Part shown: positions 18,400 to 18,562 of the stretch, in pieces
How positions within the stretch are numbered: position 1 is the first letter of the stretch
Layout: each line of letters opens with the position of its first letter
Origin: an uncultured Verrucomicrobiae bacterium
GTDB taxonomy: Bacteria > Chlamydiota > Chlamydiia > Chlamydiales > Rhabdochlamydiaceae
Length of the DNA: 64,000 nt
Assembly (NCBI GenBank): GCA_963818965.1
Contig: CAWFUG010000001.1
Location: forward strand, 160,001-224,000
Reading direction: 5' to 3'
Notes under the pieces: generated by a model
Databases searched by the model: none
The model's input: only the letters and a program-made list of their open reading frames with translations
What the model was told of the DNA's origin: nothing
Made by a program: the position numbers and the translations under genes

Positions 18400-18562
18400 T
18401 ACTGCGCCCGGTCAGGAATTGCGAATTTGAGCTTTTGATCAGCTCCCGCGATTCCACGATCGAAAAGGGGGCCTGTATTGAGGAAATACAGGCCCCCTTT
18501 TCGATCGTGGAATCGCGGGGCTTTGACGCGCTCAAATTTGCAATTCCTGACCGGGCGCAGTA
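18400..18562. mobile_element. 163-nt foldback element (family A), TA-flanked
   Basis: 33-nt terminal inverted arms (1 mismatch), nested inner stem; homologous to 40864 and 58178. Confidence 0.88.

What the first reader, a model, noticed from the sequence alone, without database searches (positions are those of the whole stretch)
18400..18562. Family of 163-nt foldback elements that conserve structure rather than sequence
Seen: copies at 18400-18562, 40864-41026 and 58178-58340 are all exactly 163 nt, start TAC, end GTA and are flanked by TA on both sides. Each folds as one long hairpin: 33-bp outer arms, a middle stem, an inner ACGATCG..GGGGG..RTT / AATAC..CCCCC..CGATCGT stem and a 5-nt loop. 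The left arms of 18400 and 58178 differ at 9 of 33 positions, yet each arm pairs with its own partner (0-2 mismatches per copy). The imperfect pair GCGTGAAAGC/GCTTTGACGC, with G opposite G, recurs in 40864 and 58178, and nearly so in 15759. Element plus TA is 165 nt, or 55 codons. Established: TA duplication is typical of IS630/Tc1-mariner MITEs, but MITE families normally keep identical terminal repeats; structure-conserved, sequence-variable hairpins are known for integron attC sites and HUH/RAYT substrates. Inference: a non-autonomous mobile element recognised as a single-stranded hairpin (DNA or RNA), with arms homogenised within each copy. No cognate transposase is in this window.
Basis: partly seen in the sequence, partly recalled or inferred. 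Interest (0 to 1): 0.9.

Follow-up and report, generated by a model that had tools for sequence, protein, structure and literature searches.

The report
Hairpin mobile elements of environmental chlamydiae
The three 163-base hairpins belong to a large, apparently undescribed family of small jumping DNA elements found across environmental chlamydiae, which keep their hairpin shape while their sequence drifts and which sometimes sit in frame inside essential genes.

Summary
The three copies are exactly as described. This genome holds about 110 paired foldback elements and 124 solo arms. Most are TA|TAC...GTA|TA, with length peaks at 163-166 and 43 nt.

Arms and inner stem covary strongly across 74 copies from many genomes: 94% of cells are paired against 69% in shuffles. 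A short asymmetric mid-stem stays constant, with a G·G mismatch, a bulged T and a C·C mismatch. Its exact sequence occurs in 61 of 401 sampled genomes of the phylum.

Mobility is shown by empty sites. Paralogous hairpins lack the element plus one TA. CopA and AroA orthologues lack the 31- and 55-residue inserts.

Wobble pairs are no commoner than A·C mismatches, so the constraint acts on DNA, not on one RNA strand. Mirrored private changes (27 against 37 single) and inverted apical segments fit replication template switching.

No cognate transposase was found. The TA, TWA and CTAG flanks suggest a cut-and-paste enzyme; recognition as a single-stranded hairpin is unproven.

Earlier agents in this scan had already noted in-frame copies elsewhere in this genome. 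This is best filed as a new variant of the palindromic MITE / Rickettsia-RPE kind.

The parts
18400..18562 (+). 163-nt foldback element, arm type A (33-nt arms 18400-18432 / 18530-18562). The inner 35-bp stem is perfect (18445-18479 / 18485-18519) and the loop is 5 nt. The left mid segment is the alternative CTTTTGATCAGC variant, which leaves an internal loop.
   Evidence: (I2, I4)
18398..18399 (.). TA target duplication on the left of 18400. It is shared with the abutting 164-nt element 18234-18397. The right copy of the duplication is at 18563-18564.
40864..41026 (+). 163-nt foldback element with a type-C-like arm, flanked TA|TA. It lies in the spacer before the long ORF 41001-43538.
   Evidence: (I8, I10)
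58178..58340 (+). 163-nt foldback element, arm type B, flanked TA|TA. It is inserted in frame (55 codons with the TA) in the ORF 57499-59991.
58212..58229 (+). Conserved left half of the mid-stem (GCGTGAAAGCTCCCGCGG). G58216 lies opposite G58303, T58222 is bulged, and C58227 lies opposite C58293.
   Evidence: unpaired positions 39, 45, 50, 116, 126 of the element
58289..58307 (+). Conserved right half of the mid-stem (AACCCCGGGGCTTTGACGC).
57499..59991 (+). Host ORF of 830 aa (leucine-rich-repeat protein) that carries the 55-residue insert.
15759..15848 (.). 90-nt short form, arm type D. It keeps the GCGTGAAA/TTTGACGC stem with its G·G mismatch but lacks the inner stem. It is flanked by TAA on both sides (15756-15758 and 15849-15851) and sits in frame in copA.
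   Evidence: (I12)
14037..16304 (-). copA (copper P-type ATPase) with a 31-residue insert that is absent from the orthologues of two genomes of the same family.
18234..18397 (.). 164-nt element of a second family with TACC..GGTA ends (arm TACCCCTTCCACC...), flanked TA|TA and abutting 18400.
   Evidence: (I15, I16)
3963..4034 (-). Truncated right half of a type-D long element (genome C1:163963-164034).

Best explanation
These are copies of a superfamily of non-autonomous foldback transposable elements (palindromic MITEs) that is widespread in environmental chlamydiae. An element inserts at a TA (arm type D at TAA/TTA) and duplicates that target. The enzyme, supplied in trans, is not identified; the palindromic 2-3-bp duplications suggest a cut-and-paste DDE-type enzyme (inference). 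Each element has invariant TAC/GTA tips, about 30-nt variable arms, a short mid-stem conserved in sequence together with its imperfections, a variable inner stem and a small loop. The mid-stem is the most likely recognition determinant (inference). Near-perfect self-complementarity of the variable parts is kept at the DNA level by arm-to-arm copying within a copy. The likely process is replication template switching between the inverted arms, which also inverts the spacer (inferred mechanism; the pattern itself is shown). Element plus duplication is usually a multiple of three bases and four of the six frames are usually open. Insertions inside genes can therefore survive as in-frame peptide inserts, as with Rickettsia palindromic elements.
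For: Mobility and target duplication.
- 86 of 125 TAC..GTA hairpins have TA|TA flanks.
- Three filled/empty pairs of another hairpin family differ by element plus TA: an exact 20 = 18+2 nt for C7:15232 vs C8:57065; 81-82 nt for an 80-nt element; about 92 nt for a 93-nt element.
- The CopA orthologues of G010 and G009 lack exactly the 31-residue insert, and one Leu codon (TTA) is duplicated around it.
- The AroA orthologues of G010, G014, G023 and G009 align as two blocks 9-45 nt apart (15 nt in G010 and G023) where G000 has about 60 residues.

Family size.
- 110 paired elements and 124 solo arms; 127 BLAST places.

Covariation.
- 74 copies: 54 of 66 pairs have compensatory changes.
- 94.1% of cells are paired against 69.4% in shuffles, score 0.616 against 0.172, 0 of 500 shuffles as high; slid registers score at most 0.15.

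DNA-level constraint.
- 100 G·T-type cells against 83 A·C-type cells.

Concerted arm change.
- Private deviations from subfamily consensus: 37 single, 27 mirrored double, 2 unmirrored.

Spacer inversion.
- The apical 31-nt segment of L145 is the exact reverse complement of that of L144 relative to the mid-stem. Among the 23 G000 rows, 14 show one orientation, 5 the other and 4 other loops.
- Template switching is reported to homogenise inverted-repeat arms and invert spacers (abstracts of PMC8604942, PMC8794818 and PMC7202029, seen in the listing).

Conserved core.
- The exact 25-nt mid pattern occurs in 61 of 401 sampled genomes of the phylum, with 0 hits for the reversed-pattern control.
- In 31 BLAST-ascertained copies from 13 genomes, the mismatch position is never Watson-Crick (28 G·G, 1 A·G, 1 G·A, 1 C·C), while its neighbour covaries (16 T-A, 13 C-G, 2 broken).

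Frame compatibility.
- (length+2) is divisible by 3 in 61 of 86 G000 elements and 28 of 37 elements from relatives.
- Four frames are open in 16-18 of 28 full-length copies, against 21% of random windows.
- In-frame hosts include AroA, a RumA-like methyltransferase, MenC, PlsX and CopA.
Against: - No transposase with matching ends was found.
- G000 (87.85% complete) gave no match to DDE_3, Y1_Tnp, rve, DDE_Tnp_4, DDE_Tnp_1_2 or Transposase_1. The Transposase_1 search rang in none of the control genomes, so it is uninformative.
- Its DDE_Tnp_1 ISs make 9-bp and 8-bp duplications and have unrelated ends.
- Its IS110 copies are a different kind of element.
- IS630-type and IS5-type genes in 40 relatives do not track the element. 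DDE_3 is in 5 of the 15 element-bearing genomes and 7 of the 25 others; DDE_Tnp_1_2 is in 6 of 15 and 4 of 25.
- If template switching homogenises arms, the persistence of mismatches in the mid-stem needs extra selection that is not explained.
- Mirrored 'private' changes could instead have been inherited from lost master copies.
- The relatives in alignment A1 were picked by exact match to the mid pattern. Mid-stem invariance in A1 is therefore by construction; only one search tests it fairly.
- Several multi-copy variants lack the G·G helix on one side, as 18400 does, so that helix may not be required for mobility.
Confidence: 0.7

Rival explanations
1. The element is moved as a folded single strand (or extruded cruciform) by a structure-specific enzyme. 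This would resemble integron attC sites or IS200/IS605 and REP hairpins. The G·G mismatch, bulged T and C·C mismatch would mark strand and register.
For: The mismatch position is never Watson-Crick in 31 of 31 unbiased copies, although the neighbouring pair covaries. The bulged T is kept in 28 of 31 and the C·C mismatch in 27 of 31. Structure is conserved while sequence varies. No classical transposase was found.
Against: The 2-bp and 3-bp target duplications are not expected of HUH or tyrosine enzymes. No Y1_Tnp gene was found in G000. Orientations of the mid-stem along four single-contig genomes are mixed, with no clear replichore bias (read by eye). Copies with an unpaired mid segment are still multi-copy.
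Confidence: 0.17
2. The hairpins are kept because they act as RNA, for example as RNase III substrates, stabilisers, terminators or small RNAs. On this view covariation reflects selection on RNA structure.
For: Long hairpins in transcripts are processed in Neisseria Correia elements (passages of PMC10969869). The covariation here is very strong.
Against: G·U-type cells are no more frequent than A·C-type cells (100 vs 83), so neither strand is favoured. No Rfam family reaches its threshold. A crude gene map shows no bias to convergent or 3' spacers: 18 convergent, 41 tandem and 24 divergent, against spacer-length shares of 16%, 58% and 25%. There is no T-run after the stem.
Confidence: 0.06
3. 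These are ordinary MITE subfamilies, each derived from a different IS. The two inverted repeats of each match only because one transposase binds both ends.
For: Arm types form discrete groups of 4-17 copies. IS630- and IS5-type genes exist in some relatives.
Against: At least ten arm types share one conserved core and one length. None of the ISs delimited has similar ends: three in G000 and two IS630 copies in relatives. Positions that vary freely between copies are still mirrored within a copy. The inner stem, far from the tips, covaries as strongly as the arms (helix 4: 22 of 28 pairs).
Confidence: 0.05

Closest known systems
Rickettsia palindromic elements (RPE)
   Same: Both are roughly 100-165-nt palindromic repeats of an obligate intracellular bacterium. 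Many copies sit in frame in unrelated housekeeping genes and add a peptide, and several families coexist. The mobilising enzyme is unknown in both. The RPE facts come from passages of PMC10969869 and PMC3733652.
   Different: The phylum differs (chlamydial MAGs). The tips are TAC/GTA and a TA or TWA duplication is shown here. A conserved asymmetric mid-stem is shared by all arm types. Sequence similarity to RPEs was not tested, because no RPE sequence was at hand.
Correia elements / NEMIS of Neisseria
   Same: Both are orphan MITEs with no known transposase, occur in long and short (internally deleted) forms, number over 100 copies, and can invert (passages of PMC10969869). That Correia elements also duplicate TA is recalled, not seen in a call.
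   Different: Correia elements keep their terminal repeats conserved in sequence (recalled). Here the arms vary and the conserved part is internal. The present elements are almost fully self-complementary.
REP / REPIN elements with RAYT transposases
   Same: Both are abundant hairpin repeats with conserved imperfections, and the folded form matters for recognition.
   Different: REPs are 20-40 nt, carry GTAG or CGTC tags and go with a Y1 (HUH) transposase (PMC3733652 abstract and passages). Here there is no Y1_Tnp gene, the tips are TAC/GTA, and target duplications are present.
Integron attC sites
   Same: In both, structure is conserved while sequence varies, and unpaired bases in the stem are constant.
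   Different: attC sites belong to gene cassettes and are recombined by IntI without target duplication (recalled). The present elements are dispersed, carry no cassette and duplicate TA.
IS630/Tc1-mariner-derived and IS5/Harbinger-type MITEs
   Same: Both show short palindromic target duplications centred on TA. The present element classes show TA, TWA and CTAG flanks. IS1031-group elements recognise three nucleotides (passage of PMC2516522). The wider target rules of the IS5 family are recalled.
   Different: No transposase of these families was found in G000, and their presence in relatives shows no association with the element. The ends of the IS630 copies examined are unrelated.

Membership tests
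Prokaryotic MITE (generic) | Small, non-coding, multi-copy | tested here: met
   Elements are 18-167 nt. There are 110 paired elements plus 124 solo arms and 127 BLAST places.
Prokaryotic MITE (generic) | Terminal inverted repeats | tested here: met
   The 33-nt arms show 0-2 mismatches. Helix 1 is 96.6% paired across 74 copies.
Prokaryotic MITE (generic) | Target-site duplication shown by empty sites | tested here: met
   Paralogous filled/empty pairs. CopA shows a duplicated TTA codon. AroA orthologues lack the insert.
Prokaryotic MITE (generic) | A related autonomous IS with the same ends | tested here: not met
   None was found in G000. The assembly is 87.85% complete, so absence is not proven.
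Rickettsia palindromic elements | Palindromic repeat inserted in frame in protein-coding genes | tested here: met
   17 of 108 elements lie in long ORFs. Hosts with Pfam domains on both sides of the insert were found.
Rickettsia palindromic elements | Sequence homology to an RPE family | not tested
   No RPE sequence was available from a tool. The Rfam scan gave no family.
IS630/Tc1-mariner-derived MITE | TA duplication only | tested here: not met
   Most classes duplicate TA. Arm type D duplicates TAA/TTA, and a CTAG-flanked class exists in other genomes (14 of 68).
IS630/Tc1-mariner-derived MITE | Cognate DDE_3 transposase with matching inverted repeats | tested here: not met
   No DDE_3 in G000. 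It occurs in 12 of 40 relatives with no association to the element. The ends of 2 delimited IS630 copies are unrelated.
IS5 / Harbinger-type MITE | Cognate DDE_Tnp_1, DDE_Tnp_1_2 or DDE_Tnp_4 transposase with matching ends | tested here: not met
   The DDE_Tnp_1 ISs of G000 have 9- and 8-bp duplications and other ends. No DDE_Tnp_1_2 or DDE_Tnp_4 was found.
REP/REPIN-RAYT | Y1 (HUH) transposase gene; no target duplication | tested here: not met
   No PF01797 match in G000. Target duplications are present.
Integron attC | Conserved folded structure with constant unpaired bases | tested here: met
   This is a likeness in design only.
Integron attC | Lies at the end of a gene cassette next to an IntI integron | tested here: not met
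   Copies are dispersed in spacers of all orientations and inside genes. An IntI gene was not searched for.
Any Rfam RNA family | Match at the family's gathering score | tested here: not met
   The window scan found only RNase P RNA and a tRNA. Permissive scan of 18200-18600: 25 hits, most of them plant or animal microRNA-precursor models and all far below their thresholds (best 75 bits against 230).

The most novel reading that the evidence does not exclude
A phylum-wide family of mobile hairpins whose only sequence-conserved part is an imperfect mid-stem (G·G mismatch, bulged T, C·C mismatch). This stem would be read in the folded state (cruciform or single strand) by an enzyme family not yet recognised as a transposase. 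That enzyme nevertheless makes TA-centred staggered cuts. If so, this is a structure-specific transposition mechanism distinct from both DDE inverted-repeat recognition and HUH hairpin recognition. It may also explain orphan elements such as RPEs and Correia elements.
Probability: 0.2. Interest if true: 0.9.

Novelty: new variant of a known kind. Interest (0 to 1): 0.65.

Why it matters
Palindromic elements that insert in frame into genes have been known in Rickettsia for a long time, and no mobilising enzyme has been identified for them (recalled). This chlamydial family offers three things that could help.

- It has a 25-nt conserved core that can be searched for exactly. It was found in 61 of 401 sampled genomes, so presence/absence profiling of gene families could name the enzyme.
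- It shows several target-duplication classes (TA, TWA, CTAG) on one scaffold.
- It is a natural data set in which arm-to-arm copying and selection for unpaired bases act side by side.

It also matters for annotation. About 1% of this genome is such repeats. They break short-read assemblies, add 15-, 23-, 31- and 55-residue loops to enzymes such as AroA, MenC, PlsX and CopA, and serve as landing sites for an IS110-type element noted by an earlier agent of this scan. Five literature searches and term look-ups in two MITE surveys (0 occurrences of 'chlamyd' in the main texts of PMC11602168 and PMC10969869) found no description of it. The supplements of those surveys were not read and may list chlamydial genomes.

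Tried and rejected
- **Autonomous parent on contig C4.** The inverted pair of type-A arm pieces 2.3 kb apart is part of a large inverted duplication carrying antitoxin-like and Fic-like ORFs, not a transposon.
- **Inverted solo arms 0.8-1.7 kb apart.** The pairs at C11:148639/150374 and C2:45783/46622 flank ordinary genes.
- **Dispersed multi-copy ORFs.** The self-BLAST top list showed only tandem gene families and C4/C12 duplicates. It missed the 3-copy IS later found.
- **IS630 ends in relatives.** The inverted repeats found in G036 and G030 are unlike any arm. None could be delimited in G018.
- **Nucleotide-level empty sites in the same-genus genome G001 and four others.** The flanks are too diverged: only the element core matched. 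Protein-level comparison was used instead.
- **Sequencing runs.** Only one DNA run was listed, with a 0.06 share of words, and no RNA holder was listed.
- **Orientation of the mid-stem along single-contig genomes.** It is mixed, and no origin or terminus was mapped, so nothing can be concluded.
- **Spacer context.** No clear bias was seen (the gene map is crude).
- **Earlier findings by sequence and by words.** Nothing matching turned up.
- **One paralogous filled/empty pair.** C1:74505 vs C11:319250 aligned poorly and was dropped.

Full report
**Observation.** Each is 163 nt, starts TAC, ends GTA and is flanked TA|TA. Each left arm differs from the reverse complement of its own right arm at 1, 2 and 0 of 33 positions. 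The left arms differ from one another at 9, 11 and 13 positions. As single-stranded DNA, 18400 and 58178 fold into one hairpin at -90.5 and -96.9 kcal/mol. The z-scores are -20 and -23, and 0 of 200 shuffles fold as well.

**Size and make-up of the family in this genome.** The window is C1:160001-224000 of a 2.24-Mb, 12-contig assembly that is 87.85% complete.
- BLAST with the window copies gives 127 places.
- A scan blind to sequence finds 684 hairpin loci. Of these, 125 have TAC..GTA tips and 86 of the 125 have TA on both sides. Length peaks are at 163, 166 and 43 nt.
- Searching with 13 arm motifs gives 110 paired elements and 124 solo arms.
- The elements are modular. At least ten arm types share one scaffold: TAC tip, about 30-nt arm, mid-stem, inner stem, small loop.
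- Shorter forms exist. Forms of 90-93 nt lack the inner stem. Minis of 43 nt keep only the outermost 12 bp. The smallest seen is 18 nt.

**Mobility and target duplication.**
- Elements often abut and share one TA, for example 18234-18397 with 18400-18562.
- Copies of an unrelated hairpin family (ACCACAGAGAGG, 116 matches) exist with and without an element in their loop. C7:15232 against C8:57065 differ by exactly 18+2 nt. C11:406318 against C8:401177 differ by 81-82 nt for an 80-nt element. C9:330579 against C12:45621 differ by about 92 nt for a 93-nt element. In each case the empty copy has a single TA at the site.
- The 90-nt type-D element at 15759-15848 lies in copA. The CopA genes of G010 and G009 lack exactly 31 residues there. 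The G000 reading ...R N L [30 residues] L N M F... shows one Leu codon (TTA) duplicated, which is a 3-bp duplication. Other type-D copies are flanked by TAA or TTA.
- The AroA orthologues of G010, G014, G023 and G009 lack the 55-residue insert.
- In other genomes, 14 of 68 parsed elements are flanked CTAG|...|CTAG rather than TA. Whether that is a 4-bp duplication is open.

**Structure rather than sequence.** Alignment A1 holds 74 full-length copies: 23 from G000 and 51 non-redundant copies from other genomes.
- 54 of 66 predicted pairs show compensatory changes.
- 94.1% of cells are paired against 69.4% in shuffles. The covariation score is 0.616 against 0.172, with 0 of 500 shuffles as high. 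Slid registers score at most 0.15.
- One caveat applies. The 51 foreign rows were chosen by exact match to the mid pattern, so their mid-stem invariance is by construction. The arms and inner stem carry no such bias.
- After setting aside one invariant T·G column, G·T-type cells number 100 and A·C-type cells 83. Wobble is therefore not favoured on either strand. The constraint is Watson-Crick complementarity of the DNA, not an RNA fold.

**Concerted change of the two arms.** In eight arm subfamilies of at least 4 copies, deviations seen in a single copy are 37 one-sided, 27 mirrored on both arms and 2 two-sided but unmirrored. The one-sided count is inflated because part of the compared arm of the 17-copy second family is not paired. 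Independent hits would give well under one mirrored pair (my estimate from these counts). The apical 31 nt occurs in both orientations relative to the mid-stem. The segment of L145 is the exact reverse complement of that of L144. Among the 23 G000 rows, 14 show one orientation, 5 the other and 4 other loops. Arm homogenisation together with spacer inversion is what replication template switching between inverted repeats is reported to do (abstracts of PMC8604942, PMC8794818 and PMC7202029). This mechanism is inferred here, not shown.

**The conserved, imperfect core.** In 31 copies from 13 relatives found by BLAST (not by the pattern):
- The position opposite the G of GYG^AAAGC is never Watson-Crick: 28 G·G, 1 A·G, 1 G·A and 1 C·C. 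The adjacent pair covaries (16 T-A, 13 C-G, 2 broken).
- The bulged T is present in 28 of 31.
- The C·C mismatch is kept in 27 of 31 and replaced by a Watson-Crick pair in 4.

The exact pattern GAAAGCTCCCGCG-N50-75-CCCGGGGCTTTG occurs in 61 of 401 sampled genomes of the phylum, in many families. It was not found in 30 of 30 genomes of one family of 1.0-1.4-Mb genomes. The reversed-pattern control gave 0 everywhere. The 80 rows shown are all MAG records. Most are titled as chlamydial lineages and some carry other labels. At least one of these, titled Verrucomicrobia, has the same matches as a genome that the tool places in G000's order.

Imperfections that survive next to freely converting arms argue for selection on them. 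This is the main support for recognition of a folded form. Against this, variants such as 18400, whose left mid segment does not pair, are still multi-copy.

**No cognate enzyme.** G000 gave no match to DDE_3, Y1_Tnp, rve, DDE_Tnp_4 or DDE_Tnp_1_2. The Transposase_1 search was uninformative because it rang in no control genome. What G000 does have:
- a 1.2-kb IS in 3 copies, with a 9-bp duplication in the two copies where the flanks could be read;
- a 1.1-kb IS with an 8-bp duplication;
- two IS110 copies.

The ends of the two DDE_Tnp_1 ISs are unlike the arms; the ends of the IS110 copies were not delimited. Among 40 relatives, DDE_3 is in 5 of the 15 genomes that carry the element and 7 of the 25 that do not. 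DDE_Tnp_1_2 is in 6 of 15 and 4 of 25. The richest carriers (G000, G007, G032, G017, G020) have neither.

**Compatibility with coding.** 17 of 108 elements lie within long ORFs, against 540 of 1000 random windows.
- Element plus TA is a multiple of three in 61 of 86 G000 elements and 28 of 37 elements from relatives.
- Four of six frames are open in 16-18 of 28 full-length copies, against 21% for random windows.
- Hosts include the LRR protein of 57499-59991, CopA, AroA, a RumA-like methyltransferase, MenC and PlsX.
- Spacer orientation shows no clear bias.
- No Rfam family fits.

**Relation to earlier notes of this scan.** Agents working on other pieces of this genome had already reported in-frame copies in a cupin gene and in sulP, and an IS110 element inserted in the repeat. 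I saw the same cupin and sulP hosts and the two IS110 genes. New in this report are the covariation test, the DNA-level reading, the conserved imperfect core, the phylum-wide spread, the TWA and CTAG classes, and the paralogous empty sites.

**Verdict.** This is a real, large and apparently undescribed family of chlamydial foldback MITEs with RPE-like behaviour. Its 'single-stranded hairpin' mechanism remains a live minority reading.

Noticed in passing
window 20298-20385, 40664-40739, 46074-46217: A second abundant hairpin family is built on repeated ACCACAGAGAGG units, with 116 pattern matches genome-wide. Its loops occur in short and long forms and serve as landing sites for the TAC..GTA elements.
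   Followed up: partly
window 18234-18397: A 164-166-nt element family (TACCCCTTCCACC... arms, about 17 full copies, several identical) shares the TACC/GGTA tips and TA flanks but has a different core. It has stops in most frames.
   Followed up: partly
window 46932-47002: A perfect 71-nt hairpin with TAC..GTA tips and a type-C-like arm, but flanked TC|AG rather than TA.
   Followed up: no
window 31109-31280 and 33010-33060: Repeated hairpins TTCCGAGCAAA...AAATCCCAGC / GCTGGGATTT...TTGCTCGGAA, one of them beside the tRNA at 33052-33134. They may be terminator-like repeats.
   Followed up: no
window 39802-39948: A nested hairpin (GAACCTATCCCAG... outer arms, perfect 31-bp inner stem) of yet another repeat family. 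The same motif appears inside loops of the ACCACAGAGAGG family elsewhere.
   Followed up: no
window 59986-60346 (-): RNase P RNA (225 bits). It starts a few bases inside the end of the ORF 57499-59991 on the other strand.
   Followed up: no
genome C4:9900-13000: A large inverted duplication on a 22-kb contig of lower G+C. It carries HTH-antitoxin-like and Fic/Doc-like ORFs and a half element fused to the end of the HTH ORF. It may be a plasmid or an assembly palindrome.
   Followed up: partly
genome C1:260607-261808, C2:149485-150685, C9:457884-459084: A 1.2-kb IS (DDE_Tnp_1) in three near-identical copies, with inverted repeats starting CTTTGTAC and 9-bp target duplications.
   Followed up: yes
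genome C9:14500-57800: Tandem arrays of long Gly-Thr/Ser-Pro repeat (collagen-like) ORFs. One has a 43-nt mini element in frame near its start (C9:46274-46316).
   Followed up: no
loci L025, L033, L068, L107 and others (other genomes): A class of the same element is flanked by CTAG on both sides instead of TA (14 of 68 parsed). It is unresolved whether the duplication is 4 bp or a TA within a CTAG target.
   Followed up: partly
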